DNA of 64,000 bases from Flavobacterium sp. (GCF_031363805.1 NZ_JANLVD010000019.1:2050-66049); one strand, 5' to 3'. Positions 22,725-54,142 are shown, counted from the first letter of the stretch. The notes: generated by a model from the sequence alone, not told the origin. Numbers and translations: made by a program.

Positions 22725-22830
22725 ATTCCCGCCATTCGTTGCAATCTGTCATTGCGAGGAACGAAGCAATCTTGCGATTTTATGGCACCCATTCCTCGCA
22801 ATCACAGGATTTCCACTGCTGTCGGGGCTA
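22725..22830 (+). repeat. Modular REP-like element, copy 1
   Basis: CCCGCCATTCGTTGCAATCT...AGGATTTCCACTGCTGTCGGGGCTA enclosing a 15-bp inverted repeat (22747-22761 / 22792-22806). Confidence 0.7.
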
Positions 22831-22982
22831 AAATTCAACTTTTCAAATTCTTAAAGCTTTTAAATTTAATAAAATGTTAGCTGTTTATTGTATTGTATTA
22901 AATGCAAAATATTTTTTCAAAGCCATTGTATATTCAATTGAACAACAAATATTTAATTCAGACAAAAATTAATAGATTAACA

Positions 22983-23013
22983 TTTGTTTCCTTAAAAATA
23001 TTTTATACATTTG
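22983..23013 (+). promoter_or_regulatory. str operon promoter
   Basis: TTTG (22983-22986), 19 nt, TACATTTG (23006-23013). Confidence 0.8.
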
Positions 23014-23066
23014 CAACCCCGTAAAAAGCGGGATATTTATAAACAAGTAATTTTTAGTATTTAATT

Positions 23067-23450
23067 ATGCCAACAATTCAACAATTAGTAAGAATAGGAA
23101 GAACCAAAATGACTAAGAAGTCTAAATCGGTGGCGCTAGATTCTTGTCCTCAAAGAAGAGGTGTTTGTACGCGTGTTTACACTACGACTCCAAAAAAACC
23201 AAACTCAGCCATGCGTAAAGTAGCGCGTGTACGTTTGACAAATGGAAACGAAGTAAATGCCTACATACCTGGAGAAGGACACAATCTACAAGAGCACTCG
23301 ATAGTATTAGTTAGAGGTGGGAGGGTAAAAGATTTGCCAGGAGTTAGGTATCACATTGTTCGTGGTGCGCTTGATACATCAGGTGTAGCAGGAAGAACAC
23401 AAAGAAGATCTAAGTACGGAGCAAAACGCCCAAAGGAAGCAAAAAAGTAA
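23067..23450 (+). CDS. rpsL: 30S ribosomal protein uS12
   Basis: [22 protein letters not shown]. Confidence 0.99.
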
Positions 23451-23454
23451 TTAA

Positions 23455-23535
23455 TTAGTGAAAAGTTAAAAAGTGAAAAGTGAAAAGCCGTTATTTTTAT
23501 AAGGCTTTAAACTTTGAAACTTTAAAACTTTTTTA
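23455..23535. repeat. 7-8-nt periodic inverted array in the rpsL-rpsG spacer
   Basis: About 4 copies of AAAAGTG/AAAAGTT facing about 3 copies of AAACTTT. Confidence 0.6.
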
Positions 23536-23547
23536 AAACAAAAAGAC

Positions 23548-24024
23548 ATGAGAAAAAGAGCGGCAAAGAAAAGACCACTTTTACCAGATCCAAGGTTCAA
23601 TGACCAATTGGTAACACGTTTTGTAAACAACTTAATGTGGGATGGTAAAAAATCAACAGCTTTCAAAGTATTTTATGATGCTATTGACATCATCGAATCA
23701 AAAAAGCAAGATGCAGAAAAATTATCATTAGATATCTGGAAAGATGCCTTAACCAATGTTATGCCTCACGTAGAAGTACGTAGTCGTAGAGTAGGTGGAG
23801 CTACATTCCAAATTCCAATGCAAATACGTCCAGACAGAAAAATTTCCATGGCAATGAAGTGGTTAATACTTTATTCAAGAAAAAGAAATGAAAAGTCTAT
23901 GGCGCAACGTTTGGCTTCAGAATGCTTAGCTGCGGCTAAAGAAGAAGGAGCGGCTGTTAAGAAAAGAATGGATACTCACAAAATGGCAGAGGCTAACAAA
24001 GCATTCTCTCACTTTAGATTTTAA
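23548..24024 (+). CDS. rpsG: 30S ribosomal protein uS7
   Basis: EVRSRRVGGATFQIP, HKMAEANKAFSHFRF. Confidence 0.99.
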   Translation: MRKRAAKKRPLLPDPRFNDQLVTRFVNNLMWDGKKSTAFKVFYDAIDIIESKKQDAEKLSLDIWKDALTNVMPHVEVRSRRVGGATFQIPMQIRPDRKISMAMKWLILYSRKRNEKSMAQRLASECLAAAKEEGAAVKKRMDTHKMAEANKAFSHFRF

Positions 24025-24034
24025 TTCTTAAGAA

Positions 24035-26191
24035 ATGGCAAGAGAACTTAAATATACACGAAACATAGGAATTGCTGCTCATATAGATGCTGGTAAAACA
24101 ACAACAACAGAGCGTATATTATTCTACACAGGAAAATCACACAAAATTGGTGAAGTGCACGATGGTGCTGCAACAATGGACTGGATGGCACAAGAGCAAG
24201 AAAGAGGTATTACTATTACTTCTGCTGCTACCACTTGTGAATGGAATTTTCCAACAACTCAAGGTAAACCTTTACCTGAAACATTGCCTTACCATTTTAA
24301 TATTATCGATACCCCAGGACACGTTGACTTTACAGTTGAAGTGAATCGTTCTTTGCGTGTACTTGATGGACTGGTTTTCTTATTTTCTGCTGTTGATGGT
24401 GTTGAGCCACAATCAGAAACTAACTGGAGACTTGCTGATCAATATCGTGTACCACGTATCGGTTTTGTTAATAAAATGGACAGACAAGGTTCTAACTTTT
24501 TGATGGTATGTCAACAAGTAAGAGATATGCTAAAATCGAATGCAGTTGCAATCACTTTGCCAATTGGTGAAGAAAATGATTTCAAAGGTGTGGTAGATTT
24601 AGTAAAAAACCAAGCGATAGTATGGGATGAAGAAGGTATGGGAGCAACTTACGAGATTGTGCCTATTCCTGCTGATATGCTTGACGAAGTTAAAGAATAC
24701 AGAGGAATTCTTATCGAAGCAGTAGCTTCTTACGATGAGAATTTGCTTGAAAAATTCATGGAAGATGAAAACTCTATTACGGAGGAAGAAATCAATACAG
24801 CTTTAAGAGCTGCCGTGATGGATATGGCGATTATTCCAATGATTGCTGGTTCTTCTTTCAAAAATAAAGGAGTTCAATTCATGTTGGATGCAGTATGTAA
24901 ATACTTGCCATCTCCAATGGATAAAGAAGGAATTTGGGGAATTGACCCAGATGACCAAGATTTATTAGAAGAAGATCAGACCAAAATATTACGTAAACCA
25001 GATGTAAAAGAGCCTTTCGCTGCTTTAGCATTTAAGATTGCTACTGACCCATTCGTAGGTCGTTTGGCTTTCTTCCGTGCTTATTCAGGAAGATTGGATG
25101 CTGGATCATATGTTTTAAATACACGTTCTGGTAACAAAGAAAGAATTTCTCGTATCTACCAAATGCACGCCAATAAGCAAAACCCAATCGAGTACATCGA
25201 GGCGGGAGATATTGGAGCGGCAGTTGGATTTAAAGATATTAAAACTGGAGATACATTGTGTGATGAAAAACACCCAATAATTCTTGAGTCAATGAAATTT
25301 CCTGCACCAGTAATTGGTATTGCTATCGAACCAAAAACAAAAGCAGACGTAGATAAAATGGGTATGGCTTTGGCTAAATTAGCTGAAGAAGATCCAACAT
25401 TTACAGTAAGAACGGATGAAGCTTCAGGTCAAACTATTATATCAGGTATGGGTGAACTTCACTTAGATATCTTGGTGGATAGAATGAGACGTGAATTCAA
25501 AGTTGAAGTGAATCAAGGTGAACCTCAAGTTGAATACAAAGAAGCATTTACAAGATCTGCAACACACAGGGAAACTTACAAGAAACAATCCGGAGGTCGT
25601 GGTAAATTCGGTGATATCGTATTTACGCTTGAGCCAGCTGATTTGGTTGATGGTAAAGCTCCTGTCGGATTACAGTTTGTAAATGCTGTAAAAGGTGGTA
25701 ACGTTCCTAAAGAATATATTCCATCTGTAGAAAAAGGTTTCCGTGAAGCTATGAAAACGGGTCCTCTTGCAGGATATCAAGTAGATAGTTTGTAAGTAAC
25801 TTTAACAGACGGATCTTTTCACCCAGTCGATTCTGATGCACTTTCTTTTGAACTTGCAGCTAGAATGGGTTATAGAGAAGTAGCTAAAGCTGCTGGAGCA
25901 ATCGTTTTGGAACCAATCATGAAAATGGAAGTGATTACACCTGAAGAAAACATGGGAGATATCGTTGGTGATATCAACCGTCGTAGAGGTCAAGTGAATG
26001 ACATGGGTGACAGAAACGGAGCTAAAACTATCAAGGCTGATGTGCCTTTATCAGAAATGTTCGGATATGTAACTACATTAAGAACATTGTCATCTGGTAG
26101 AGCAACTTCAACTATGGAGTTTTCACACTATGCAGAAACGCCTTCTAACATATCAGAAGCAGTAATTAAAAAAGCAAAAGGTAACGCATAA
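24035..26191 (+). CDS. fusA: Elongation factor G, interrupted by an in-frame TAA at 25793-25795
   Basis: [21 protein letters not shown]. After TAA the same frame continues [26 protein letters not shown] to the stop at 26191 (718 codons). Confidence 0.97.
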
Positions 26192-26202
26192 TTCTTAAGA
26201 AA

Positions 26203-26508
26203 ATGAGTCAAAAAATCAGAATAAAATTGAAATCTTACGATTATATGTTAGTAGACAAGTCTGCTGAAAAGATTGTAAAAACTGTAAAAAGTACAGGTGC
26301 TGTTGTAACTGGTCCAATTCCGTTACCAACACACAAAAAACTTTTCACTGTATTGCGTTCTCCGCACGTTAACAAAAAAGCGAGAGAACAATTTGAAGTG
26401 ATGTCATATAAGAGATTAATTGATATTTATTCTTCCTCTTCAAAAACCATTGATGCTCTAATGAAATTAGAGTTGCCTAGTGGAGTAGAAGTTGAGATAA
26501 AAGTATAA
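26203..26508 (+). CDS. rpsJ: 30S ribosomal protein uS10
   Basis: [20 protein letters not shown]. Confidence 0.99.
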
Positions 26509-26531
26509 TTATCTAATATAAAAAGTATTTG

Positions 26532-26572
26532 GGGATTAAGTTTTGAATATCAAAACTTAATCCCTACTTTTG
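26532..26572 (+). promoter_or_regulatory. Internal rplC promoter overlapped by a 15-bp inverted repeat
   Basis: TTTG 26542-26545, 19 nt, TACTTTTG 26565-26572. Inverted repeat at 26532-26546 / 26550-26564. Confidence 0.65.
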
Positions 26573-26613
26573 CACACTCAAAAAAATAAGTAGTAATTTA
26601 TAATTAATTAAAT

Positions 26614-27231
26614 ATGTCTGGGTTAATCGGAAGAAAAATTGGCATGACTAGCATCTTTGACGAAAACGGGAAGAATATTCCTTGTACCGTTATAGAAGCA
26701 GGACCATGCGTAGTTACCCAAGTCAGAACCATTGGTGTTGACGGGTATGAAGCCTTGCAACTTGGTTTCGATGACAAAAACGAGAAACATTCCACTAAAG
26801 CTGATTTAGGTCACTTTAAAAAAGCTGGAACTGTAGCTAAGAAAAAAGTCGTTGAATTTCAAGATTTTGCAACAGAACAAAAATTAGGAGATCTTATCGA
26901 TGTGTCTATTTTTGTTGAAGGAGAATTTGTAGATGTACAAGGTGTGTCGAAAGGTAAAGGTTTTCAAGGAGTTGTTAAACGTCACGGTTTTGGTGGTGTT
27001 GGACAAGCAACTCACGGTCAACACAACCGTTTAAGAGCGCCAGGTTCTGTAGGAGCTTCTTCTTATCCATCTAGAGTATTCAAAGGAATGCGTATGGCTG
27101 GAAGAATGGGAGGAGACAATGTAAAAGTTCAAAACCTTAGAGTTTTAAAAGTAGTAGCTGAAAAGAACCTACTTGTTATAAAAGGATGTATTCCTGGATG
27201 TAACAACTCTTATGTAATCATTCAGAAGTAA
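26614..27231 (+). CDS. rplC: 50S ribosomal protein uL3
   Basis: [23 protein letters not shown]. Confidence 0.99.
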
Positions 27232-27860
27232 TGGAAGTAAAAGTATTAAATTTCAACGGAAAAGATACTGGAAGAAAAGTTCAACTTTCTGATTCAGTAT
27301 TCGCAATTGAACCAAACAATCACGCAGTATATCTTGATGTAAAGCAATATCTTGCTAATCAAAGACAAGGAACGCACAAAGCAAAAGAAAGAGCTGAAGT
27401 TGCGGGAAGTACTCGAAAAATAAAAAAACAAAAAGGAACTGGTACTGCTCGTGCGGGTAGTGCAAAGAATCCATTGTTTAAAGGTGGTGGAACTGTTTTC
27501 GGACCTAGACCAAGAAGTTATTCATTCAAATTGAATAAAACTGTAAAACGTCTGGCAAGAAAATCAGCTTTCTCAATTAAAGCAAAAGAATCAAATATTA
27601 TTGTTCTTGAAGATTTTAATTTTGAAACACCAAATACTAAAAATTTCATCAATGTTTTGAAGGCTTTAGGGTTAGAAAATAAAAAATCTTTATTTGTGTT
27701 GGGTGATTCAAATAAAAATGTATATTTGTCGTCACGCAATTTAAAAGCTTCTAACGTAGTAAGTAGCTCAGAATTAAGCACTTACACCATTTTAAACGCT
27801 AATACTTTAGTGCTTTTAGAAGGTTCAATAGAAGTAATTGAAGAAAATTTAAGCAATTAA
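27231..27860 (+). CDS. rplD: 50S ribosomal protein uL4
   Basis: QKGTGTARAGS..NPLFKGGG. Confidence 0.99.
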   Translation: MEVKVLNFNGKDTGRKVQLSDSVFAIEPNNHAVYLDVKQYLANQRQGTHKAKERAEVAGSTRKIKKQKGTGTARAGSAKNPLFKGGGTVFGPRPRSYSFKLNKTVKRLARKSAFSIKAKESNIIVLEDFNFETPNTKNFINVLKALGLENKKSLFVLGDSNKNVYLSSRNLKASNVVSSSELSTYTILNANTLVLLEGSIEVIEENLSN

Positions 27861-27866
27861 TAGGCC

Positions 27867-28157
27867 ATGAATATCATTATTAAACCTATAGTAACAGAAA
27901 AAGTAACCAAACAAAGTGAACTTTTGAATCGTTTTGGTTTTGTTGTAGAGAAGAAAGCTAACAAAGTACAAATTAAGAAAGCTATAGAAGCTGCTTATGG
28001 AGTAAATATTGTAAGTGTAAATACAATGAACGTTAGACCAGACAGATCTACAAAATACACTAAAAGTGGGTTAATCACTGGAAAGACAAATGCTTACAAA
28101 AAAGCAATTGTACAAGTACAAGAAGGAGAAACAATAGATTTTTACAACAATATCTAA
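27867..28157 (+). CDS. rplW: 50S ribosomal protein uL23
   Basis: IIKPIVTEK, YKKAIV. Confidence 0.98.
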   Translation: MNIIIKPIVTEKVTKQSELLNRFGFVVEKKANKVQIKKAIEAAYGVNIVSVNTMNVRPDRSTKYTKSGLITGKTNAYKKAIVQVQEGETIDFYNNI

Positions 28158-28166
28158 TATTTAAAG

Positions 28167-28991
28167 ATGTCAGTAAGAAAATTAAAACCTATTACCCCGG
28201 GTCAGCGATTTAGAGTTGTGAATGGTTTTGACGCCATTACAACTGATAAGCCGGAGCGTTCATTGATCGCACCGATAAAAAACTCAGGCGGTAGAAATAG
28301 TCAAGGAAAAATGACCATGCGTTACACAGGCGGTGGTCACAAACAAAGGTATCGTATTATCGATTTTAAAAGAACTAAAGACGGAATTCCAGCTTCAGTT
28401 AAATCTATCGAATACGATCCAAACAGAACTGCATTCATCGCTTTATTAGCTTATGCTGATGGTGAGAAAACGTATATTATTGCTCAAAACGGATTGCAAG
28501 TAGGTCAAAAAGTAGTTTCAGGAGAAGGTGCTGCACCAGAAATTGGAAATACTTTACCACTTAGCAAAATTCCTTTAGGAACTGTAATATCTTGTATTGA
28601 GTTACGTCCAGGTCAAGGAGCAACTATTGCTCGTTCAGCTGGAACATTTGCTCAGTTAATGGCAAGAGACGGGAAATACGCAACAATCAAAATGCCTTCA
28701 GGTGAAACAAGATTGATCTTGCTTACTTGTTCAGCAACTATTGGAGCCGTATCAAATTCTGATCATCAATTAATTGTATCTGGTAAAGCAGGTAGAACAA
28801 GATGGTTAGGTAGAAGACCAAGAACAAGACCAGTTGCCATGAACCCTGTCGATCACCCAATGGGTGGTGGTGAAGGACGTTCTTCAGGTGGTCACCCACG
28901 TTCAAGAAATGGTATCCCAGCTAAAGGTTATAGAACTCGTTCTAAGAAAAACCCAAGTAACAAGTATATTGTAGAACGTAGAAAGAAATAA
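28167..28991 (+). CDS. rplB: 50S ribosomal protein uL2
   Basis: [22 protein letters not shown]. Confidence 0.99.
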
Positions 28992-28997
28992 TAAGAT

Positions 28998-29276
28998 ATG
29001 GCACGTTCATTAAAAAAAGGACCTTTCGTACACTATAAATTAGACAAGAAAGTTCAAGAAAATATTGCAGGTGGAAACAAAGGTGTTGTAAAGACTTGGT
29101 CTCGCGCATCTATGATTACTCCAGATTTTGTAGGTCAAACTATTGCAGTTCACAACGGTCGTCAATTCGTACCTGTTTATGTTACTGAAAATATGGTAGG
29201 TCACAAATTGGGAGAATTTTCACCAACAAGATCATTTAGAGGTCACGCTGGAGCAAAAAATAAAGGTAAAAAATAA
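28998..29276 (+). CDS. rpsS: 30S ribosomal protein uS19
   Basis: [17 protein letters not shown]. Confidence 0.99.
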
Positions 29277-29282
29277 GAAGCA

Positions 29283-29696
29283 ATGGGAGTTCGTAAAAGA
29301 GAAACAGCAGACGCAAGAAAAGAGGCCAATAAGTCTCTAGCCTTCGCAAAGTTAAATAACTGCCCTACTTCACCTAGAAAAATGCGCTTAGTTGCGGACT
29401 TGGTAAGAGGTCAGAAAGTGGAAAGAGCACTTAATATATTAAGATTTAGCTCCAAAGAAGCTTCAAGAAAATTAGAAAAATTGGTTTTATCTGTTATTGC
29501 CAACTGGCAAGCAAAAAATCCAGATGCTAATATGGAAGAAGCAGGCTTATTTGTAAAAACTATCACTGTAGATGGTGGAATGATGTTGAAAAGACTTCGT
29601 CCAGCGCCACAAGGTAGAGCACACAGAATTAGAAAACGTTCAAACCACGTAACAATCGTGTTAGGGGCTATTAACGATAACACACAAGCAAATTAA
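29283..29696 (+). CDS. rplV: 50S ribosomal protein uL22
   Basis: [22 protein letters not shown]. Confidence 0.99.
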
Positions 29697-29701
29697 TAAA
29701 G

Positions 29702-30463
29702 ATGGGACAAAAGACAAATCCAATTGGAAATAGACTTGGTATCATCAGAGGATGGGACTCTAACTGGTATGGTGGAAATGACTACGGTGATAAAATCGCT
29801 GAAGACTACAAAATCAGAAAGTATATCCATGCTCGTTTATCAAAAGCTAGTGTATCAAAAGTAATTATCGAGAGAACTTTAAAACTTGTAACCGTTACTA
29901 TCACTACTGCTAGACCTGGTATTATTATCGGAAAAGGTGGACAAGAGGTAGACAAGTTGAAAGAAGAACTTAAGAAAGTTACTGACAAAGAGGTTCAAAT
30001 CAACATCTTTGAAATTAAAAGACCTGAATTGGATGCTTATCTAGTTGCGACTAGCATCTGTCGTCAAATTGAAAGCCGTATTTCATACAGAAGAGCTATC
30101 AAAATGGCAATCGCTGCATCTATGAGAATGAATGCAGAAGGAATTAAAGTATTAATTTCTGGTCGTTTGAATGGAGCTGAAATGGCACGTTCAGAAGGTT
30201 TCAAAGAAGGAAGAATTCCTCTATCAACTTTCAGAGCCGATATCGACTATGCTTTGGCTGAAGCACATACTACTTATGGTAGAATGGGTATCAAAGTATG
30301 GATCATGAAAGGTGAAGTTTATGGAAAGAGAGATCTTTCTCCACTTGTAGGTATGGATAAAAAACAATCCGGTACTGGTGGTGGTAAAGGTGGCGATGCT
30401 CCAAGAGGAGACAGAAAGCCTTTTAATAAAGGTGGAAAACCAGACGCTCGTAAAAGAAAGTAA
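29702..30463 (+). CDS. rpsC: 30S ribosomal protein uS3
   Basis: [23 protein letters not shown]; Gly/Lys-rich tail. Confidence 0.99.
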
Positions 30464-30484
30464 TTTTATTTAAATTAAAGAAAA

Positions 30485-30910
30485 ATGTTACAGCCTAAAA
30501 GAACAAAATACCGTAAGGTACAAAAAGGTAAAATGAAAGGAAACTCTCAAAGAGGGCACGAACTTTCAAATGGAATGTTTGGAATTAAATCTGTTCATGA
30601 AGATGGAATGTTTTTAACATCACGTCAAATCGAAGCTGCACGTATTGCTGCAACTCGTTTCATGAAAAGAGAAGGTCAATTATGGATCAAAATATTCCCA
30701 GACAAACCAATAACAAAGAAACCTCTTGAAGTACGTATGGGTAAAGGTAAAGGTGCAGTTGAATATTGGGCTGCTGTTGTTAAACCAGGAAGAATTATGT
30801 TTGAAGTTGGAGGAGTTCCATTGTCAGTTGCAAAAGAAGCATTGCGTCTTGCAGCACAAAAACTACCATGTAAAACTAAATTCATCGTTGCTAGAGATTT
30901 CGAAGCATAA
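30485..30910 (+). CDS. rplP: 50S ribosomal protein uL16
   Basis: [18 protein letters not shown]. Confidence 0.99.
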
Positions 30911-30921
30911 TAAATATAATT

Positions 30922-31113: not shown

Positions 31114-31130
31114 TTGTATTCTGCTGAAAG

Positions 31131-31391: not shown

Positions 31392-31393
31392 TT

Positions 31394-31762: not shown

Positions 31763-31774
31763 TTATTTATTAAG

Positions 31775-40308: not shown

Positions 40309-40345
40309 AAAAGGGTAAACTAGCAATAGTTTATCCTTTTTTTTT
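40309..40345 (+). terminator. alpha operon terminator
   Basis: AGGGTAAACTA-GCAA-TAGTTTATCCT followed by a long T-tract. Confidence 0.85.
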
Positions 40346-40474
40346 AGGAGCGAATCGCTTGGGCTTTATCCGCAAACCATATTCCTGCTGTCGTTGCAAT
40401 CTTTTTTTTACAACTGACAGGTTTTTAAAACCTGTCAGGTGTAATAAAAAGGATTTCCACTTACATCAGGGCTA
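40346..40474 (+). repeat. Modular REP-like element, copy 2
   Basis: AGGAGC...ATTCCTGCTGTCGTTGCAATCT...AAAGGATTTCCACTTACATCAGGGCTA enclosing CTGACAGGTTTTTAAAACCTGTCAG (40414-40438). Confidence 0.7.
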
Positions 40475-40525
40475 ATAAATAAATTTTAGGATTACTTGTA
40501 ATCTTTTAAAAACTTTGACAAAAAC

Positions 40526-43093: not shown

Positions 43094-43248
43094 GGAGCAA
43101 TTCCCGCCTTTCGCTTCATCCCGATAGCTATCGGGACATTCAAAAAGCTGTTTTTCTACTCAACAACAGGAGCTTCCTTTGGTCGCTCTGTTTTTGCTAG
43201 AAAAACTGGCTTTTTTCATTTTGTAGCTTTTCGCTTCACTCGGGGCTA
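43094..43248 (+). repeat. Modular REP-like element, copy 3 (nested hairpins)
   Basis: GGAGCAATTCCCGCCTTTCGCTTCA...TCGGGGCTA enclosing the perfect palindrome TCCCGATAGCTATCGGGA (43119-43136) and further stems. Confidence 0.7.
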
Positions 43249-43347
43249 AAAATTGAAATAAAAATAAACCAAAATATATAATTCGGGATAATTTTTCAGT
43301 TCTCAAAATAATTTATAATTTATAATTCATAATTCATATTTTTTTTT

Positions 43348-43377
43348 TAAGTTTGCACCCTTAACGAGAGGAGGTGT
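43348..43377 (+). promoter_or_regulatory. rpsU -7 box and extended Shine-Dalgarno sequence
   Basis: TAAGTTTG (43348-43355); GAGAGGAGGTGT (43366-43377) 7 nt before the ATG. Confidence 0.85.
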
Positions 43378-43384
43378 CTATATT

Positions 43385-43579
43385 ATGTTAATTATACCAA
43401 TTAAAGACGGAGAAAATATCGATAGAGCATTAAAGCGCTATAAAAGAAAATTTGACAAAACTGGAGTTGTTCGTCAACTAAGAGCACGTCAAGCTTTCAT
43501 TAAGCCATCTGTAACCCACAGAGCTAAAATTCAAAAAGCTGCTTACGTTCAAAACATGAGAGAGAATTTAGAAAGTTAA
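43385..43579 (+). CDS. rpsU: 30S ribosomal protein bS21
   Basis: ENIDRALKRYKRK, FIKPSV, KAAY with Tyr54. Confidence 0.98.
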   Translation: MLIIPIKDGENIDRALKRYKRKFDKTGVVRQLRARQAFIKPSVTHRAKIQKAAYVQNMRENLES

Positions 43580-43695
43580 ATTTTAATTTTCTGTAAATAT
43601 AAATCGTTAGTTATTTAAGTTTCGTACTTTTATGCTAACGATTTCTTGTTTTTGCGAGGAGTTGCGAGAAACCAAGCAAAGCAATCTAATCCTTA

Positions 43696-44586
43696 ATGAA
43701 TCAACAAAAATTCCAAGATTATTTACTTCTCGAAAAAAACTATTCTAAGCTTACAGCATTAGCTTATGGTAAAGATTTGGATTTTTTCAAAAATTTCATA
43801 GAAGAACATTTTGCTAATGCCACACTTGAAGAGGTTTCTTATACTTTAATAAGAAGTTGGATAGTTTCTATGATCGATTCAAACATATCAAACACATCTG
43901 TAAACCGAAAAGTAGCTTCATTAAAAGCGTTTTACAAATTTCTATTAAAAACAAAACAAATAGAAGTAAATCCACTTAGTAAACACAAAGCATTAAAATC
44001 TCCCAAAAAAATTCAAATTCCCTTCTCTGAAGATGAAATAAATAAGGTTCTAAATCAATTACATTATAAAGAAGGATTCGAAGGACTTCGAGATAAACTC
44101 ATAATAGACTTATTTTACACAACAGGAATTAGAAGATCTGAACTTATTGCACTCCAAATTTTCAATGTAGATGTCTCAAATGGAACAATAAAAGTCATCG
44201 GAAAAAGAAATAAAGAAAGAATTATTCCAATATTGCCCATAATTCAAATTCAAATAAAATCCTATTTGTTTGAAAGAAAAGCGCTTCCAGTACTTTTGCA
44301 GCAAGATTTCTTTTTTTTATTGCAAAACGGAAATAAACTAAACGAAACATTTGTCTATCGATTAATTAATGACTACTTTAGTAATGTTTCCGAGAAAGTA
44401 AAAAAGAGTCCACATATGCTTAGACATACATTTGCAACTCACATGCTCAATCACGGTGCAGATTTAAATTCCATTAAAGAGTTATTAGGTCATTCAAGTC
44501 TTGCGTCAACTCAAGTTTATACTCATTCAAGTTTAGCTGAACTTAAAAATGTATATAAAAATTCGCATCCTAGAAACCAAAGATAA
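43696..44586 (+). CDS. xerC: XerC/XerD-family tyrosine recombinase
   Basis: TGIRRSEL, GKRNKERI, HMLRHTFATH, LLGHSSLASTQVY. The C versus D assignment is uncertain. Confidence 0.85.
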   Translation: MNQQKFQDYLLLEKNYSKLTALAYGKDLDFFKNFIEEHFANATLEEVSYTLIRSWIVSMIDSNISNTSVNRKVASLKAFYKFLLKTKQIEVNPLSKHKALKSPKKIQIPFSEDEINKVLNQLHYKEGFEGLRDKLIIDLFYTTGIRRSELIALQIFNVDVSNGTIKVIGKRNKERIIPILPIIQIQIKSYLFERKALPVLLQQDFFFLLQNGNKLNETFVYRLINDYFSNVSEKVKKSPHMLRHTFATHMLNHGADLNSIKELLGHSSLASTQVYTHSSLAELKNVYKNSHPRNQR

Positions 44587-45003: not shown

Positions 45004-45011
45004 ATTGAATT

Positions 45012-45440: not shown

Positions 45441-45494
45441 CAAAATTGTAAAATTTGAACACTAATATATAATTAAGATTAAAAACTAAGTAAA

Positions 45495-46682: not shown

Positions 46683-46704
46683 ATATATTTCAAATAAATA
46701 AAAC

Positions 46705-46737
46705 CCAGTTCCGATAATTTTCGGAACTGGTTTTTTT
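46705..46737 (+). terminator. tuf terminator
   Basis: CCAGTTCCGA-TAATTT-TCGGAACTGG followed by T7. Confidence 0.9.
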
Positions 46738-46742
46738 AACAA

Positions 46743-46813
46743 ACGGGCGTAGTTCAAGGGTAGAATAGCGGTCTCCAAAACCGTTGATGGGGGTTCGAAT
46801 CCCTCCGCCCGTG
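46743..46813 (+). tRNA. tRNA-Trp(CCA)
   Basis: Acceptor ACGGGCG/CGCCCGT; anticodon loop CTCCAAA. Confidence 0.97.
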
Positions 46814-46828
46814 CAAAAATAAATTAGA

Positions 46829-47026
46829 ATGACTAAAGTTGTTAATTACATATCAGAAGCTTTCGAGGAATTAAAATCAAACGTTTCATGGCCAGCATGG
46901 GAAGAAGTGCAAAAACTTACTATAGTTGTTGCTATATTTTCTGTAATATTTGCCCTTGCTACGTGGGGTGTCGATACACTTTTTGCCAAATCAATTGGCG
47001 GATTTTTCAACTGGATAAAATCTTAA
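46829..47026 (+). CDS. secE: Preprotein translocase SecE
   Basis: ELKSNVSWP motif plus one TM; precedes nusG. Confidence 0.95.
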   Translation: MTKVVNYISEAFEELKSNVSWPAWEEVQKLTIVVAIFSVIFALATWGVDTLFAKSIGGFFNWIKS

Positions 47027-47036
47027 ATATTTTATC

Positions 47037-47588
47037 ATGGCAGATGTAAATGTAAAAAAATGGTACGTTGTGAGAGCTGTTAGTGGACAGGAAAACAAGG
47101 TAAAAGCTTATATAGAAACTGAAATTGCTAGATTAGGTCTATCTGATTATGTTTCTCAAGTGCTTGTTCCTACTGAGAAAGTTGTAACAGTTCGTGATGG
47201 AAAAAAAATCGTAAAAGATAAGGTTTACTTTTCTGGATACGTGATGATTGAAGCCAATTTGGCTGGAGAAATTCCCCACATCATTAAATCAATAACAAGT
47301 GTAATTGGTTTTTTAGGTGAAGTTAAAGGTGGAGATCCTGTACCTTTGAGAATGTCTGAAGTTAACAGAATGCTCGGAAAAGTGGATGAGTTGGCAGTAA
47401 CTACAGATCATGGTTCGATTCCTTTTACAATCGGAGAAACTATTAAAGTGACTGATGGTCCATTTAATGGTTTTAACGGAACTGTTGAAAAAATCAATGA
47501 AGAAAAACGTAAGCTTGAAGTAATGGTGAAGATTTTCGGAAGAAAAACTCCATTAGAATTAAGTTTCATGCAAGTGGAAAAGGTTTAA
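47037..47588 (+). CDS. nusG: Transcription factor NusG
   Basis: WYVVRAVSGQE, KOW DGPFNGFNG, IFGRKTPLEL. Confidence 0.99.
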   Translation: MADVNVKKWYVVRAVSGQENKVKAYIETEIARLGLSDYVSQVLVPTEKVVTVRDGKKIVKDKVYFSGYVMIEANLAGEIPHIIKSITSVIGFLGEVKGGDPVPLRMSEVNRMLGKVDELAVTTDHGSIPFTIGETIKVTDGPFNGFNGTVEKINEEKRKLEVMVKIFGRKTPLELSFMQVEKV

Positions 47589-47704
47589 ATTTTCTGACGT
47601 TGACATTCGACATCAAGATATTTGACATTAAAAAAAAGTATAATTTTTGTTACATATATAAACCCGCATTAATCGCTTCCACGATTAAAGCAAAATTTTA
47701 AAAA

Positions 47705-48148
47705 ATGGCTAAAGAAGTTAGTAAAGTAGTTAAACTACAAGTTAAGGGAGGTGCTGCGAATCCGTCGCCACCGGTTGGACCTGCTTTGGGAGCTGCTGGA
47801 GTTAACATCATGGAATTCTGTAAGCAGTTTAATGCTAGAACCCAAGATAAATCCGGCAAAATATGTCCAGTGCAAATCACTGTATATAAAGACAAATCAT
47901 TTGATTTTGTCGTAAAAACTCCACCAGCTGCAGTCCAATTAATGGAAGCTGCAAAATTGAAATCTGGTTCAGGTGAGCCTAATCGTAAAAAAGTAGCTTC
48001 GGTTACTTGGGATGTGATTAAGGCAATTGCTGAAGATAAGATGGCTGATTTGAACGCATTCACAATGGAATCTGCAATGAGTATGATCGCAGGAACGGCT
48101 AGATCTATGGGTATAACTGTAACTGGAGATTCTCCTCTAAAAAATTAG
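47705..48148 (+). CDS. rplK: 50S ribosomal protein uL11
   Basis: [17 protein letters not shown]. Confidence 0.99.
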
Positions 48149-48150
48149 AT

Positions 48151-48840
48151 ATGGCAAAATTGACAAAAAAGCAAAAAGAAGCTGTCTCGAAAATTGAAAA
48201 GAATAAATTATATTCTTTAAAAGATGCTTCAATATTAATCAAACAAATTGCTTCTGCAAAGTTTGATGAATCAGTTGATATCGCTGTAAAACTAGGAGTA
48301 GATCCAAGAAAAGCAAATCAAATGGTTAGAGGTGTGGTTGCATTGCCACACGGAACAGGTAAAAACATGAGAGTTTTAGCATTAGTTACTCCAGATAAGG
48401 AAGCTGAAGCTAAAGAAGCGGGAGCAGATCATGTTGGATTAGACGATTATTTACAAAAAATAAAAGATGGTTGGACAGATGTTGACGTTATCGTTACTAT
48501 GCCTGCTGTTATGGGTAAATTAGGTCCATTAGGTCGTATATTGGGACCACGTGGTTTAATGCCAAACCCTAAAACTGGTACTGTTACTATGGAAATTGGT
48601 AAAGCTGTAGCAGAAATTAAAGCGGGTAAAATCGACTTTAAAGTAGATAAAACTGGTATCGTTCACGCAGGAATTGGAAAAGTATCTTTCGATGCTGATA
48701 AAATTACTGAAAACGCACACGAAATCATTCAAACATTAATTAAATTAAAGCCAACTGCTGCAAAAGGTACTTACATCAAGTCTATTCACTTGACAAGCAC
48801 CATGAGTCCAGCTATTGCTTTAGATCCTAAAGCTGTATAA
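48151..48840 (+). CDS. rplA: 50S ribosomal protein uL1
   Basis: [18 protein letters not shown]. Confidence 0.99.
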
Positions 48841-48845
48841 TTGAT

Positions 48846-49346
48846 ATGACAAGAGAAGAAAAATCAATCGCTATTGGAGATTTAACTGCACAGTTAGCTG
48901 GTACAAACATTTTATATGTAGCAGATATTTCTGGATTAAATGCAGAAACTACTTCAAACCTAAGAAGAGCTTGTTTTAAAGCAGGTATCAAATTAGAAGT
49001 TGTAAAAAATACATTGCTTGTTAAAGCAATGGAAGCATCTGATAAAAACTTTGGTGATCTACCATTGACTTTAAAAGGAAATTCTTCAATATTTATTGCA
49101 GATGTGGCCAATGGTCCTGCAAAAATTATCAAAGATTTCCGTAAAAAATCAGACAAACCTCTTTTAAAAGGAGCTTACATTAATGATGAAGTTTATATTG
49201 GTGACAATTTACTTGATTCATTAGTAAACCTTAAATCTAGAGACGAAGTTATTGGAGAAATCATTGGATTACTTCAATCTCCTGCCAAACGCGTGATTGC
49301 TGCATTATTAAACCATGCAGAATCAAAAGGCGAAACAGCAGAATAA
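48846..49346 (+). CDS. rplJ: 50S ribosomal protein uL10
   Basis: VVKNTL; position between rplA and rplL. Confidence 0.98.
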   Translation: MTREEKSIAIGDLTAQLAGTNILYVADISGLNAETTSNLRRACFKAGIKLEVVKNTLLVKAMEASDKNFGDLPLTLKGNSSIFIADVANGPAKIIKDFRKKSDKPLLKGAYINDEVYIGDNLLDSLVNLKSRDEVIGEIIGLLQSPAKRVIAALLNHAESKGETAE

Positions 49347-49401
49347 TCAAGCGCACAATAAATTATAATAAATTACAAATCATTTTAAAAAGATAGAAAA
49401 A

Positions 49402-49773
49402 ATGGCAGATTTGAAACAATTCGCAGAACAATTAGTTAACTTGACAGTTAAAGAAGTTAATGATTTAGCTACAATATTAAAAGATGAATACGGTATCGAA
49501 CCAGCAGCTGCAGCTGTTGTAATGTCATCTGGTGGTGGAGACGCCGCTGCTGTTGAAGAGCAAACAGAATTTACAGTTGTATTAAAAGAAGCTGGTGCTT
49601 CTAAATTGGCTGTAGTAAAAGCGGTTAAAGAACTAACAGGTTTAGGTCTTAAAGAAGCTAAAGATTTAGTTGATGCTGCACCATCTAACATTAAAGAAGG
49701 TGTTTCTAAAGATGAGGCTGAAGGTCTTAAAAAATCTTTAGAAGAAGCAGGAGCTGTTGTTGAGCTTAAATAG
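49402..49773 (+). CDS. rplL: 50S ribosomal protein bL12
   Basis: [20 protein letters not shown]. Confidence 0.99.
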
Positions 49774-49794
49774 TCCAACATAGTTTTTGAAACA

Positions 49795-49838
49795 GGTTTA
49801 GGTCTTGGGTATTATGTCCAATGACCTAAACCATTTTT
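49795..49838 (+). terminator. Terminator/attenuator hairpin between rplL and rpoB
   Basis: GGTTTAGGTC...GACCTAAACC followed by ATTTTT. Confidence 0.7.
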
Positions 49839-50014
49839 CGTATAATAAAATTATATTTAATTTACGAAAAAATTTTAATCAGTACGAAGAAAAAAATCAA
49901 CTAAATTTTCCTGGTTTATTTTTAAAGATGTATTGTTTTAAAAAGGAAAAGTACAAATTATACAGTGTTTTATACACAAAAATTACTTTTTTTTAATCAA
50001 AATTTTGTCCATTG

Positions 50015-53000
50015 ATGATAACAAATCAGACTGATAGATTGAATTTTGCCTCAACAAAAAATATCCCGAATTACCCAGATTTTCTGGATGTTCAGGTTAA
50101 ATCTTTTCAAGATTTTTTCCAATTGGAAACCAAATCTGATGAGAGAGGCAACGAAGGGCTTTACAATACCTTCATGGAAAATTTTCCAATTACCGATACT
50201 AGAAATAATTTCGTACTGGAATTCCTTGACTATTTTGTAGATCCGCCACGTTATACAATTCAAGAATGTATAGAGAGAGGTTTAACATATAGTGTGCCAT
50301 TAAAAGCACGTCTAAAACTATATTGTACAGACCCAGAACATGAAGATTTTGAAACTATAGTACAAGATGTATATCTTGGAACTATTCCATACATGACACC
50401 AAGCGGAACTTTCGTTATCAATGGTGCCGAACGTGTGGTTGTTTCTCAATTACACAGATCACCAGGTGTTTTCTTCGGACAATCATTCCATGCGAATGGA
50501 ACCAAATTATATTCTGCCCGTGTAATTCCTTTTAAAGGATCATGGATAGAATTTGCTACTGATATCAATAGCGTAATGTACGCTTATATCGATAGAAAGA
50601 AAAAACTACCAGTTACCACTTTATTCCGTGCTATTGGATTCGAAAGAGACAAGGATATCCTTGAAATTTTCGATCTTGCCGAAGAAATTAAAGTGTCGAA
50701 ATCTGGACTAAAAAAATACGTAGGTAGAAAATTAGCGGCACGTGTATTAAATACTTGGCATGAAGACTTCGTTGATGAAGATACTGGCGAAGTAGTTTCT
50801 ATCGAAAGAAACGAAATTATTTTAGATCGTGATACGATTTTAGATAAAGATAATGTAGAAGAAATTGTAGAATCTAACGTAAAATCTATCTTATTACACA
50901 AGGAAGATAATAATGTTGTAGATTATTCAATCATTCACAATACATTACAAAAAGATCCAACTAACTCTGAAAAAGAAGCCGTTGAGCATATCTACAGACA
51001 ATTGCGTAATGCAGAACCGCCTGATGAAGAAACTGCTCGTGGTATTATAGATAAATTATTCTTTTCTGACCAACGTTATAACTTAGGTGAAGTTGGTCGT
51101 TATAGAATGAACAAAAAACTTGGTTTGGATATCCCAATGGAAAAGCAAGTGCTTTCCAAAGAAGATATTATTACCATCGTTAAATATTTGATTGAATTAA
51201 TCAACTCAAAAGCTGAGATTGATGATATTGATCACTTATCAAATCGTCGTGTTCGTACAGTTGGAGAACAATTGTCGCAACAATTTGGTGTAGGTTTGGC
51301 ACGTATGGCCAGAACTATTCGTGAGAGAATGAACGTTAGAGACAACGAGGTGTTTACACCAATCGATTTGATTAATGCAAAAACATTATCATCGGTTATC
51401 AACTCTTTCTTTGGTACGAACCAGTTGTCTCAATTTATGGATCAAACCAATCCATTGGCTGAAATAACACACAAGCGTAGGTTATCAGCTCTAGGGCCAG
51501 GTGGTCTTTCTCGTGAAAGAGCCGGTTTTGAGGTGCGTGACGTTCACTATACACACTACGGAAGACTTTGTCCGATTGAAACTCCTGAAGGACCAAATAT
51601 TGGATTGATTTCATCTCTTGGTGTTTACGCAAAAGTAAACGGAATGGGTTTCATCGAAACTCCTTACCGAAAAGTAACCAATGGTGTTGTAGATTTAACT
51701 TCTACTCCAGTTTATTTAAGCGCAGAAGAGGAAGAAGGTCAATTAATTGCACAAGCAAACATTAAAATGGATGCTTCTGGAAAAATTACTGCTGAAAATG
51801 TTATTGCCCGTCAAGAAGGCGATTTCCCAGTAGTTGATCCATCAGCTGTTCATTATACTGATGTCGCTCCAAATCAAATTGCTTCAATTTCTGCTTCACT
51901 TATTCCTTTCTTGGAACATGATGATGCGAATAGAGCGTTGATGGGATCCAACATGATGCGTCAAGCCGTTCCATTATTACGTCCAGAAGCACCAATTGTT
52001 GGTACAGGATTGGAGCGCCAAGTAGCTTCAGATTCTAGAGTATTGATTAATGCGGAAGGAACTGGAGTGGTAGAATATGTTGATGCCAATATGATTACCA
52101 TTAAATACGACAGAACTGATGCCGAAAGAGCGGTAAGTTTTGAATCTGATGAGAAATCATACCAATTAATTAAATTTAGAAAAACGAATCAAAGTACGTC
52201 TATCAACTTAAAACCTATCGTAAGAAAAGGTGACAAAGTAATAAAAGGACAAGTACTTTGTGAAGGATATGCAACGCAAAACGGAGAGTTAGCATTAGGT
52301 CGTAACCTAAAAGTAGCTTTTATGCCTTGGAAAGGGTATAACTTCGAGGATGCAATTGTAATTTCTGAAAAAGTAGTTCGTGATGATATTTTCACCTCTA
52401 TTCACGTAGATGATTATTCATTGGAAGTGAGAGATACAAAATTAGGAAACGAAGAGTTGACTAATGATATTCCGAACGTTTCTGAAGAAGCTACCAAAGA
52501 TTTGGATGAAAACGGAATGATTAGAATTGGTGCCGAAGTTAAACCTGGCGATATTCTAATCGGAAAAATTACACCAAAAGGAGAATCAGATCCAACTCCT
52601 GAAGAGAAACTTTTACGTGCAATCTTTGGAGATAAAGCTGGTGATGTGAAAGATGCTTCATTAAAGGCATCACCATCACTTCACGGTGTTGTTTTAGATA
52701 AAAAATTGTTCGCAAGAGCAGTAAAAGATAAGCGAAAACGTACGCAAGATAAAGATGCTTTAACTGAATTGGAAACTGAATTTGAAACTAAATTTGTTGA
52801 ATTGAAAGACAAATTGGTTGAAAAATTATTCGCCATTGTAAACGGGAAAACATCGCAAGGTGTTATGAACGATTTGGGTGAAGAAGTGTTGCCAAAAGGT
52901 AAAAAGTATACTCAAAAAATGTTGTATGCTGTTGAAGATTTTGCACACTTGTCTAAAGGACAATGGGTTGCAGACGATGAAACTAATAATATGGTGAATG

Positions 53001-53827
53001 ATTTAATTCACAACTATAAAATTAAGTTAAACGATCTTCAAGGATCATTACGTCGTGAGAAATTTACAATTACTGTTGGTGATGAGTTACCAGCTGGAAT
53101 TTTGAAACTTGCCAAAGTATATATTGCCAAAAAACGTAAGTTAAAAGTGGGTGATAAAATGGCGGGACGTCACGGAAACAAAGGAATCGTTGCACGTATT
53201 GTACGTCACGAAGACATGCCTTTCCTTGAAGACGGAACACCTGTAGATATCGTATTGAATCCACTTGGAGTACCTTCCCGTATGAACATTGGTCAAATTT
53301 ATGAAACTGTTCTTGGATGGGCTGGACAAAACTTGGGACGCAAATATGCAACACCAATTTTTGACGGAGCATCATTAGATCAAATCAACGAAATTACCGA
53401 TGAAGCTGGAGTACCACGTTTCGGTCACACCTATCTTTATGATGGTGGTACAGGAGAACGTTTCCACCAAGCAGCAACTGTTGGAGTAATCTACATGTTG
53501 AAACTTGGGCATATGGTCGATGATAAAATGCACGCACGTTCAATCGGTCCGTACTCATTAATTACGCAACAACCATTGGGTGGTAAAGCACAATTTGGAG
53601 GTCAACGTTTTGGAGAGATGGAAGTTTGGGCACTGGAAGCTTATGGAGCATCTTCTACTTTGAGAGAAATTTTAACAGTAAAATCTGATGATGTTATTGG
53701 TAGAGCCAAAACTTACGAAGCAATCGTAAAAGGTGAATCAATGCCAGAACCTGGATTGCCAGAATCGTTCAACGTATTAATGCACGAATTGAAAGGTTTA
53801 GGTTTAGACATTCGTTTAGAAGAATAA
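50015..53827 (+). CDS. rpoB: RNA polymerase beta subunit
   Basis: [47 protein letters not shown]. Confidence 0.99.
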
Positions 53828-53840
53828 TTATTATCTGTAG

Positions 53841-53903
53841 AACCGTTGCACTGCAACGGTTTTGCAAATATTTTTTTACAACGGTTTTGCAAATATTTTT
53901 TTA
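53841..53903 (+). repeat. Hairpin plus an exact 25-bp tandem duplication after rpoB
   Basis: AACCGTTGCA-C-TGCAACGGTT; CAACGGTTTTGCAAATATTTTTTTA twice (53854-53878, 53879-53903). Confidence 0.75.
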
Positions 53904-54056
53904 TAAAGTTTTTAAGATTTAGACCCGTAAAACGTTCCGATTTTTTACAATCAAACACGTTACAGTGTAACGTCTTTACGTAATTAGCACTTCAAGTATT
54001 TGATTTGAAGTTTAGAGAAGTAACCCGAGGTAAATAATTTAAAATAATGTTTTTTC

Positions 54057-54142
54057 AGGAGCCAATCCCGCTATCCGCTTCAATCTTTTTTCATTCGCCG
54101 AAAAGGCTCATTAAAAAAGGATTTCCGCTACTATCGGGGCTA
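54057..54142 (+). repeat. Modular REP-like element, copy 4 (minimal form)
   Basis: AGGAGCCAATCCCGCTATCCGCTTCAATCTTTTT...AAAAAAGGATTTCCGCTACTATCGGGGCTA. Confidence 0.7.

What the first reader, a model, noticed from the sequence alone, without database searches (positions are those of the whole stretch)
22725..54142. Russian-doll REP-like family: a constant shell carrying swappable hairpin cargo
Four co-oriented copies (22725-22830, 40346-40474, 43094-43248, 54057-54142) share a left arm (GGAGC..)TCCYGCY.TYCGYT(T/G)CAATCT and a right arm GGATTTCC(A/G)CT...TC(G/A)GGGCTA; copy 3 is more degenerate. Each encloses a different palindrome: TGTCATTGCGAGGAA..TTCCTCGCAATCACA, which resembles CGTC-type/Rickettsia palindromic repeats and is inserted exactly between CAATCT and GGATTT; CTGACAGGTTTTTAAAACCTGTCAG; TCCCGATAGCTATCGGGA plus nested stems; and a minimal hairpin. 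The arms pair with G-T wobble (AATCTTTTT/AAAAGGATT), implying single-stranded structure. Three copies directly follow highly expressed genes (rplQ, eno, rpoB). This looks like a non-autonomous mobile or RNA-regulatory system in which one element is a landing pad for others, possibly driven in trans by a RAYT/TnpA-REP-type nuclease not present in this window.
Basis: partly seen in the sequence, partly recalled or inferred. Interest (0 to 1): 0.72.

Follow-up and report, generated by a model that had tools for sequence, protein, structure and literature searches.

The report
Flavo-1 hairpin repeats with nested palindromes
The four "Russian-doll" elements are copies of Flavo-1, a folded intergenic repeat of Flavobacterium catalogued in 2010 with no known function. 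It behaves like a dispersed, REP/MITE-like DNA repeat whose hairpin tip collects other small palindromes, not like a small-RNA gene.

Summary
The shared "shell" is the known Rfam family Flavo-1 (RF01705), modelled on the minus strand. Three copies pass Rfam's threshold. Copy 3 is a decayed long-apex member.

This Flavobacterium genome holds at least 97 copies. Congeners hold from 1 to more than 80. The element is absent from the rpoB-rpoC spacer in 9 relatives. After the rplQ terminator, 22 of 80 species carry it, always in the same orientation, each with a different apex, and at least 13 gains or losses are needed.

The arms covary almost purely by Watson-Crick double changes. The cargo palindromes are independent repeat families that also occur outside shells, and identical shell haplotypes carry different cargos, so "swappable cargo" holds.

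The RAYT idea is not supported. Y1 genes carry their own different hairpins and show only background Flavo-1 density. One relative has at least 83 copies and no intact Y1. There is no replichore bias.

Published F. psychrophilum arrays show the Rfam strand mostly silent, with the opposite strand passively transcribed inside operons and 5' UTRs.

Best reading: a structure-maintained, non-autonomous DNA repeat with an unknown mobiliser. The family is already known; its repeat-like, modular nature seems undescribed.

The parts
22694..22833 (-). Copy 1. Flavo-1 shell (Rfam hit 22721-22833) plus a 5' extension that starts with GAAGC at 22694. It lies in the divergent spacer upstream of rpsL.
   Evidence: own model 55.3 bits.
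22747..22806 (.). Apex cargo of copy 1. This is a 'D' doublet of two inverted 24-nt units (GTCATTGCGAGGAACGAAGCAATC type, one arm decayed) that replaces the whole apical stem between ATC(T) and GGAT.
   Evidence: The same cargo sits at the same junction in at least 14 other shells. Single units also occur outside shells.
40313..40345 (+). Intrinsic terminator of rplQ (hairpin plus T9). The T-run is conserved in species that lack the element, and the element starts 1 nt after it.
40347..40477 (-). Copy 2. Flavo-1 shell (Rfam hit 40377-40477) with a GGAGC plus 25-nt 'gamma' linker. It lies between rplQ and carA.
   Evidence: Orthologous copies exist in other species.
40413..40439 (.). Apex cargo of copy 2: the palindrome (C)CTGACAGGTTTTTAAAACCTGTCAGG ('P').
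   Evidence: 13 copies in the genome, 4 in shells and 9 free-standing, with compensatory variants CCTAACAGG..CCTGTTAGG.
43094..43251 (-). Copy 3. A decayed Flavo-1 of the long-apex ('L', about 144 nt) class. It lies between eno and rpsU.
   Evidence: 24.6 bits; E 1.4e-5. The L class recurs in this genome and in relative G020.
43119..43136 (.). 18-nt perfect palindrome TCCCGATAGCTATCGGGA nested in one arm of copy 3. This is why copy 3 falls below the Rfam threshold.
   Evidence: 14 copies in the genome, 0 in the control. The same palindrome sits in the linker of the element after eno in relative G016.
43169..43188 (.). Conserved core of the L-class apex (GGAGCTTCCTTTGGTCGCTC).
   Evidence: It is also present in the F. 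psychrophilum alaS 5'UTR copy.
54058..54145 (-). Copy 4. Minimal Flavo-1 (Rfam hit 54060-54145) in the rpoB-rpoC spacer. Its apex is a small GAGCC..CGGCG hairpin.
   Evidence: It is absent from this spacer in 9 other Flavobacterium genomes or contigs.

Best explanation
The shell is Flavo-1, a dispersed, non-autonomous, hairpin-forming repeat of Flavobacterium genomes. It works at the DNA level in the manner of REP/ERIC/MITE elements, not as a small-RNA gene.

Shown:
- It is present in about 100 copies here.
- Its numbers differ enormously between congeners.
- It is gained and lost at orthologous intergenic sites.
- About half the copies sit with their GGAGC end against a T-run, and several of those T-runs are the terminator of the upstream gene.
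- Its stem is kept complementary by double (Watson-Crick) changes, while four purine-purine mismatches and one C.A mismatch stay fixed on one strand.
- Its tip is the one place where sequence is free.
- At least five other small palindromic repeat families sit in that tip, sometimes flipped, and the same families also exist elsewhere in the genome.

Inferred:
- The fixed mismatches mark a folded single strand (the Rfam strand) that some trans-acting protein recognises for copying, moving or maintaining the element.
- The tip is both tolerant of insertions and a preferred target for hairpin-seeking mini-palindromes.
- Copies survive best where the weaker-folding strand is the one transcribed with neighbouring genes.

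The mobilising protein is unknown.
For: - Copy number: 97 hits in 2.99 Mb, more by arm search, with contig ends breaking inside copies. Same-genus genomes hold 1, 4, 5, 10 and up to more than 80. F. psychrophilum holds 128.
- Absent from the rpoB-rpoC spacer in 9 relatives.
- rplQ site: 22 of 80 species carry it, all in one orientation, with three linker subfamilies and different apexes. At least 13 gains or losses are needed, 6 of them forced by well-supported branches. The closest relative lacks it.
- rpsL spacer: this genome has a type I copy, four NCBI genomes have a type II copy, and a JGI contig has none.
- Covariation: 97.3% of cells paired against 70.8% when shuffled and 35-49% when slid. 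There are 121 double changes against 4 single-side changes. G.A and A.G mismatches are fixed in 53-70 of 73 copies.
- The Rfam strand folds better in 84 of 97 copies.
- Modularity: the four commonest shell haplotypes each carry 3 or more cargo classes. The S unit occurs in both orientations inside the same apical stem. Cargo families are found outside shells.
- A T-run abuts the GGAGC end in 47 of 88 copies against 2 of 88 on the control flank. With a co-oriented upstream gene, 11 of 19 such T-runs are real terminators against 14% of intergenic T-runs.
- No conserved promoter or terminator signal in the flanks.
- In published arrays the Rfam strand is near background at several copies, while the opposite strand is read within operons and 5'UTRs.
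Against: - No clean filled-versus-empty pair at strain level was obtained, so no exact ends, target duplication or recent transposition event is shown.
- No two copies in this genome are more than 94% identical, so there has been no recent burst.
- No autonomous parent element and no mobilising enzyme were found.
- Long retention at the rplQ site with compensatory changes and the orientation bias towards flanking genes (45:12 here) could equally mean a host function.
- That bias is only 24:13 in a second genome.
Confidence: 0.6

Rival explanations
1. It is a cis-acting RNA structure in mRNAs. Read on the + strand of the window, the hairpin would serve in 5'UTRs, between cistrons or after terminators as a stabiliser, processing site or insulator, and it would be kept at each locus for that reason.
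For: - That strand is co-oriented with flanking tandem genes 45:12. Copies are 25 in divergent against 4 in convergent spacers.
- The element is retained after rplQ in many species with compensatory changes.
- In F. psychrophilum this strand lies inside transcribed intra-operon segments and in the ftsY and alaS 5'UTRs.
- A conserved G.U wobble exists on this strand.
Against: - The other strand folds better in 84 of 97 copies and carries the conserved purine mismatches.
- G.U intermediates are almost absent, 4 against 121 double changes.
- Copy number runs from 1 to more than 80 among congeners.
- At least 13 gains or losses occur at one site, and the nearest relative lacks it.
- Many copies sit just after a terminator, where little transcription arrives.
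- The bias is weak in G020, 24:13.
- The original authors found hits sense, antisense and untranscribed.
Confidence: 0.17
2. It is the REP of a RAYT (TnpA-REP, Y1 transposase) acting in trans.
For: - The genome has 8-9 Y1_Tnp genes, several of RAYT size (183-204 aa).
- The element is an extragenic imperfect palindrome in high copy.
- Its cargo units (GTCA plus hairpin, singly or as inverted doublets) look like REP/REPIN units.
Against: - Each Y1 gene is flanked by its own, different hairpins.
- 35 Y1 loci (108 kb, 16 genomes) hold 3 Flavo-1 hits, which is the background rate of about 1 per 34 kb, and none brackets a Y1 gene.
- G002 has at least 83 copies and only a 73-aa Y1 fragment with stops. 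G003 and G005 have one weak hit each.
- Two complete genomes show no replichore strand bias, permutation p about 0.8.
- The shell has no GT[AG]G head.
Confidence: 0.1
3. Each copy is a trans-acting small-RNA gene. This is Rfam's formal type for the family (Gene; sRNA).
For: - There is strong covariation and a stable fold on the Rfam strand.
- Some Rfam-strand array signals rise in stationary-phase and agar conditions in F. psychrophilum.
Against: - There are about 100 copies per genome with free apexes.
- No conserved promoter or terminator lies at a fixed distance. An A-run, not a U-run, follows the Rfam strand.
- Rfam-strand probes read near background (about 4) at copies 0001 and 0015, while the opposite strand reads 10-12 at 0001 and 0020.
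- The condition pattern matches that of small stable RNAs such as tRNA and may reflect cross-hybridisation of a near-palindrome.
Confidence: 0.05

Closest known systems
Flavo-1 RNA motif (Rfam RF01705; Weinberg et al. 2010, PMC2864571)
   Same: It is this family. Three copies exceed the gathering score. The helices, conserved purines and variable-length apex are the same, and so is the taxon (Flavobacterium).
   Different: The published description is one sentence on taxonomy, and the family is typed as an sRNA gene. Not found in the literature searched: the dispersed-repeat behaviour, gains and losses at orthologous sites, the outer GGAGC helix with a variable linker, the T-run association, and the nested palindromes.
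REP / BIME / REPIN elements with RAYT transposases (E. coli, Pseudomonas; recalled from Nunvar 2010, Bertels & Rainey 2011, Ton-Hoang 2012)
   Same: Both are short extragenic imperfect palindromes in tens to hundreds of copies, passively transcribed, with structure kept by compensatory change. The S and D cargo units (GTCA head plus hairpin, often as inverted doublets) resemble REP/REPIN anatomy.
   Different: The shell has no GT[AG]G head, is not arranged as doublets, is not found around Y1/RAYT genes, and persists where no intact Y1 gene is detectable.
ERIC/IRU and Correia-type MITEs (from memory: about 127-nt enterobacterial palindromes with longer variants made by insertions at fixed internal sites; Neisseria Correia elements)
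   Same: They are hairpin-forming intergenic repeats of 70-150 nt, co-transcribed with neighbouring genes, and their size classes arise from internal insertions at fixed positions.
   Different: There is no sequence relation. No target-site duplication or transposase-related terminal repeat could be shown here. The comparison rests on recall, not on a test.
IS1397/ISKpn1 insertion into BIME loops, and class C group II introns inserting after terminators (from memory)
   Same: These are precedents for the two targeting behaviours inferred here: palindrome loops as landing pads, and insertion just downstream of terminator hairpin/T-runs in a fixed orientation.
   Different: Those are protein- or ribozyme-encoding elements with known mechanisms. 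Here both host and guests are non-coding and the machinery is unknown.
Integron attC sites (from memory)
   Same: Both are folded single-strand sites defined by structure, with fixed unpaired bases that mark one strand and a variable terminal structure of 3 to more than 100 nt.
   Different: attC sites form arrays next to an integrase, each after a cassette gene. Flavo-1 copies are scattered singly over the genome.

Membership tests
Rfam Flavo-1 (RF01705) | Covariance-model score at or above the gathering score (42 bits) | tested here: met
   Copies 4, 1 and 2 score 75.3, 62.1 and 60.1 bits. Copy 3 scores only 24.6 bits, E 0.0086, because an 18-nt palindrome interrupts one arm. An independent model recovers it at E 1.4e-5.
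Rfam Flavo-1 (RF01705) | Consensus hairpin supported by covariation, with conserved unpaired purines | tested here: met
   (73 copies of this genome); 97.3% paired, 15 of 18 pairs with double changes, 0 of 500 shuffles as high.
Rfam Flavo-1 (RF01705) | Taxon: Flavobacteriia / Bacteroidota | tested here: met
   The nearest L17 loci are all Flavobacterium. The family is absent from 14 control genomes.
Rfam Flavo-1 (RF01705) | Acts as a small RNA gene (Rfam type) | not testable with these tools
Published F. psychrophilum data argue against it.
REP/REPIN-RAYT system | High-copy extragenic imperfect palindrome | tested here: met
REP/REPIN-RAYT system | RAYT (Y1) gene flanked by the repeat | tested here: not met
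   Y1 genes have other hairpins, and Flavo-1 occurs at background density around 35 Y1 loci.
REP/REPIN-RAYT system | Conserved GT[AG]G head 5' of the hairpin | tested here: not met
   The shell begins TAGCC on one strand and GGAGC on the other. Only the cargo units have a GTCA head.
REP/REPIN-RAYT system | Copy number depends on an intact RAYT in the genome | tested here: not met
   G002 has at least 83 copies and only a broken Y1 fragment.
MITE | Terminal inverted repeats plus target-site duplication | tested here: inconclusive
   The arms are inverted repeats. No clean empty site allowed a duplication to be read. TTCAA flanks both sides of some beta-class copies.
MITE | A related autonomous element with the same ends | tested here: not met
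   No arm pair encloses a gene-sized insert in this genome.
Intrinsic terminator | Hairpin followed by a U-run on the transcribed strand | tested here: not met
   The T-run precedes the element on the gene strand, and an A-run follows it on the other strand.
Integron attC array | Tandem array of sites, one per cassette, beside an integrase | tested here: not met
   Copies are scattered over more than 70 contigs. The XerC-like gene at 43696-44586 is a conserved syntenic gene.

The most novel reading that the evidence does not exclude
Flavo-1 hairpins and their guests may form a hierarchy of hairpin-seeking DNA parasites. The shell would home, in one orientation, to the T-run side of terminator-like sites. 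Several unrelated mini-palindromes would home specifically to the exposed loop of the folded shell and can flip there. These are the GTCA-headed S/D units, the CCTGACAGG palindrome and the 18-nt TCCCGATAGCTATCGGGA. That would imply a still unknown enzyme activity in Bacteroidota that recognises folded single-stranded DNA, independent of RAYT.
Probability: 0.25. Interest if true: 0.65.

Novelty: already known. Interest (0 to 1): 0.36.

Why it matters
Flavo-1 is one of the most numerous entries counted as a bacterial "sRNA" family (PMC9029176), yet nothing is known about it. Suppose it is a REP/MITE-like DNA repeat with a structure-specific, RAYT-independent way of spreading and a tip that traps other palindromes.

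- Rfam-based sRNA censuses in Bacteroidota would then be inflated by about 100 false genes per genome.
- These repeats explain many contig breaks in Flavobacterium MAGs.
- The family offers a tractable case, with a hundred natural variants per genome, for asking which protein reads a folded strand with fixed purine mismatches.

Tried and rejected
1. Replichore bias. The top-scoring hits in complete genome G008 looked strand-switched at two points, but all 55 hits in G008 and in G020 give no better partition than shuffles, p about 0.8. Rejected.
2. RAYT adjacency. Rejected.
3. An autonomous parent element bounded by shell arms. None found.
4. Terminator function. Rejected, because the T-run is on the wrong side.
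5. A recent burst. Rejected, maximum pairwise identity is 94%.
The published F. psychrophilum supplement was read instead.
7. A strain-level empty site through exact-protein look-ups. L17 was not on record. S12 gave other species only.
8. A literature search for the cargo unit sequences found only chance primer matches. The REP survey paper lists Flavobacterium only in a table.
9. The conserved block at 43300-43647 looked like an unknown RNA but is the rpsU (S21) gene.
Full report
**What is there.** Rfam identifies the shell as Flavo-1 (RF01705) on the minus strand: 54060-54145 at 75.3 bits, 22721-22833 at 62.1 bits and 40377-40477 at 60.1 bits, against a gathering score of 42. Copy 3 (43096-43251) reaches 24.6 bits, E 0.0086. 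A model built only from 14 other minimal copies of this genome finds it at E 1.4e-5. Copy 3 is weak because an 18-nt perfect palindrome (43119-43136) interrupts one arm. Its apex belongs to a recurrent 144-nt class. The genus is Flavobacterium. The flanking genes are:
- copy 1: a 562-aa gene and rpsL
- copy 2: rplQ and carA
- copy 3: eno and rpsU
- copy 4: rpoB and rpoC

**Copy number and spread.** The window's own assembly (2.99 Mb, 273 contigs) has 97 hits, 88 of them above threshold. Fourteen control genomes have none. An arm search finds further subtypes and copies cut by contig ends. Same-genus genomes range from 1, 4, 5 and 10 hits to more than 80; counts there are capped by the tool. 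F. psychrophilum has 128. Pairwise identity within this genome never exceeds 94%, so the family is old here.

**Anatomy.** In Rfam orientation the order is:
- TAGCC
- four helices separated by two symmetric 3x3 loops (G-N-A opposite G-N-A)
- a conserved C.A mismatch
- the apex, and back down the other arm

Helix pairs covary freely, for example CG/UA/AU at one pair and UA/GC/AU at another. The loop purines are fixed: G.A or A.G in 53-70 of 73 copies. On copies from 22 species plus the window, 97.3% of cells pair, against 70.8% after shuffling and 35-49% when the partner is slid. There are 121 double changes and only 4 single-side changes. This near-absence of G.U intermediates is unusual for a functional RNA and fits a constraint on strict complementarity. 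The Rfam strand folds better than its complement in 84 of 97 copies, with a mean difference of 3.6 kcal/mol.

Beyond the Rfam model there is an outer helix: GGAGC...GCUA in type I copies and GGCGUGA...UCACGC in type II. It is joined to the shell by a linker of 5 to about 35 nt that itself falls into classes. A run of four or more T abuts the GGAGC end in 47 of 88 copies, against 2 of 88 on the control flank.

**Cargo.** Apex classes in this genome:
- Minimal hairpins.
- 'S': a 24-nt unit, GTCA + arm + TGAGCTTGTCGAA + arm, in either orientation (18 and 11 copies), sometimes inside the very same apical stem, a flip/flop pattern.
- 'D': inverted doublets of the related unit GTCATTGCGAGGAACGAAGCAATC, which replace the whole apical stem at one fixed junction (14 or more copies; copy 1).
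- 'P': the palindrome CCTGACAGG..CCTGTCAGG (copy 2).
- 'L': a 144-nt class with the core GGAGCTTCC..GGTCGCTC (copy 3).

These families are independent repeats. P has 13 copies, 9 of them outside shells. The 18-nt palindrome has 14 copies, none in the control. S units also occur as free REPIN-like doublets with their own conserved flanks. The four commonest shell haplotypes each carry three or more cargo classes, and each cargo class sits in five or more haplotypes. So shell and cargo are recombined or joined repeatedly, which is what 'swappable' means.

**Orthologous sites.**
- The rpoB-rpoC spacer lacks the element in nine other Flavobacterium genomes or contigs, although the rest of the spacer is conserved.
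- After the rplQ terminator, the window and four relatives carry the element at the same place and orientation. Their apexes are unrelated: P here, plain hairpins, a GTCA-type unit, or almost nothing. There are compensatory changes in the arms, and five relatives lack it.
- Over 80 species, 22 carry it there, all in one orientation, with three linker subfamilies. A tree of rpoA-rplQ needs at least 13 gains or losses, 6 of them forced by strong branches, against 18 when labels are shuffled. The closest relative (91% identity) lacks it.
- Upstream of rpsL, four NCBI genomes have a type II copy where this genome has a type I copy with D cargo, and a JGI contig has none.

**Who moves it?**
- The genome has 8-9 Y1_Tnp genes. 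Each is flanked by its own hairpins (GCTCC..GGAGC arrays, GC-rich CGAGACGCT types, CCTGCAAGG..CCTTGTAGG), not by the shell.
- In 35 Y1 loci from 16 genomes (108 kb) there are three Flavo-1 hits, which is the genome-wide background rate, and none brackets a Y1 gene.
- G002 has at least 83 copies and only a broken Y1 fragment.
- No gene-sized insert lies between shell arms.
- Two complete genomes show no replichore bias.

So a RAYT driver is not supported, and the mobiliser is unknown.

**Orientation and transcription.**
- In this genome the Rfam strand is antisense to tandem flanking genes 45:12. Copies number 25 in divergent spacers but 4 in convergent ones, where length predicts about 12.
- In G020 the direction is the same but weaker, 24:13.
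- Where the upstream gene is co-oriented and a run of five or more T abuts the element, 11 of 19 are true terminators, against 14% of intergenic T-runs.
- The flanks carry no conserved promoter or terminator signal.
The supplement of the F. psychrophilum transcriptome paper was read instead. It shows Rfam-strand probes near background at copies 0001 and 0015 while the opposite strand reads 10-12 at 0001 and 0020. Some copies are sense within operons. [quoted passage not shown]

**Reading.** The evidence best fits a structure-maintained, non-autonomous DNA repeat (confidence 0.6). A cis-RNA role, an sRNA role and a RAYT-REP identity are less likely rivals.

The original description of Flavo-1 is a single sentence on taxonomy. 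I found no paper describing its repeat-like dynamics or its nesting. The family is therefore already known, while its behaviour as described here appears to be undescribed. Earlier notes of this scan point the same way. I treated them as leads and re-tested the ones I used.

Noticed in passing
own genome contig C269 (locus L032) versus window 53450-54650: The assembly holds a second rpoB-rpoC junction at 80-86% identity, without the element. The MAG therefore mixes in a second Flavobacterium population (reported contamination 4.4%).
   Followed up: partly
window 53900-54035: A non-coding block downstream of rpoB (GATTTAGACCCGTAA..CGTTCCGATTTTTT ... TAGCACTTCAA..TTGAAGTTTAGAGAAGTAACCCGAGGTA) is nearly invariant in 10 Flavobacterium genomes and has no Rfam match. 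It is a candidate rpoB-rpoC intercistronic RNA element.
   Followed up: no
own genome C10:2990-3451, C156:582-1187, C178:8353-8901, C228:8121-8669, C26:14642-15217 (loci L002, L007, L006, L008): Several Y1/RAYT-like genes of 154-202 aa are each bracketed by their own family of hairpin repeats (for example arrays of GCTCCnnnGGAGC after C10). This looks like four or more separate REP-RAYT systems in one 3-Mb genome.
   Followed up: partly
window 43119-43136; own genome, 14 sites; relative G016 (locus L064) after eno: The 18-nt perfect palindrome TCCCGATAGCTATCGGGA is a separate dispersed insert. In G016 it sits exactly where the gamma linker consensus has GCT (GAATG|GCT|TGGGC). In three L-class cores it replaces AGGAAGCT.
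   Followed up: partly
own genome, e.g. C115:164-268 versus C232:11371-11475: The same apical stem (TTTTTTGTGGTTTTG / CAAAACCACAAAAAA) holds the 24-nt S unit in opposite orientations in different copies. This flip/flop pattern suggests inversion between the stem arms.
   Followed up: partly
own genome, e.g. C46:827-900, C48:19307-19380, C88:21156, C259:4241, C270:2645, C273:2592: There are free-standing REPIN-like doublets of the S unit (GTCACAC-TGAGCTTGTCGAA-GTGT facing GTCAGTC-TGAGCTTGTCGAA-GAC). They share AT-rich flanks, so this is a further small repeat family.
   Followed up: no
window 22900-23066 and loci L145-L149: About 170 nt upstream of rpsL, including TTGCAACCCCGTAAAAAGCGGGA, is conserved across species. 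This is a probable S12 operon promoter/leader with no Rfam match.
   Followed up: no
window 43385-43579: An unlisted 64-aa ORF is ribosomal protein S21 (rpsU). It explains the conserved block between eno and the XerC-like gene.
   Followed up: yes
relative G004, rpoB-rpoC spacer (locus L011, about 1500-1560): TTTTTTTGGAGCAATTCGCTTAAAAA looks like the two outer ends of an element joined with the hairpin missing. It may be a deletion footprint.
   Followed up: no
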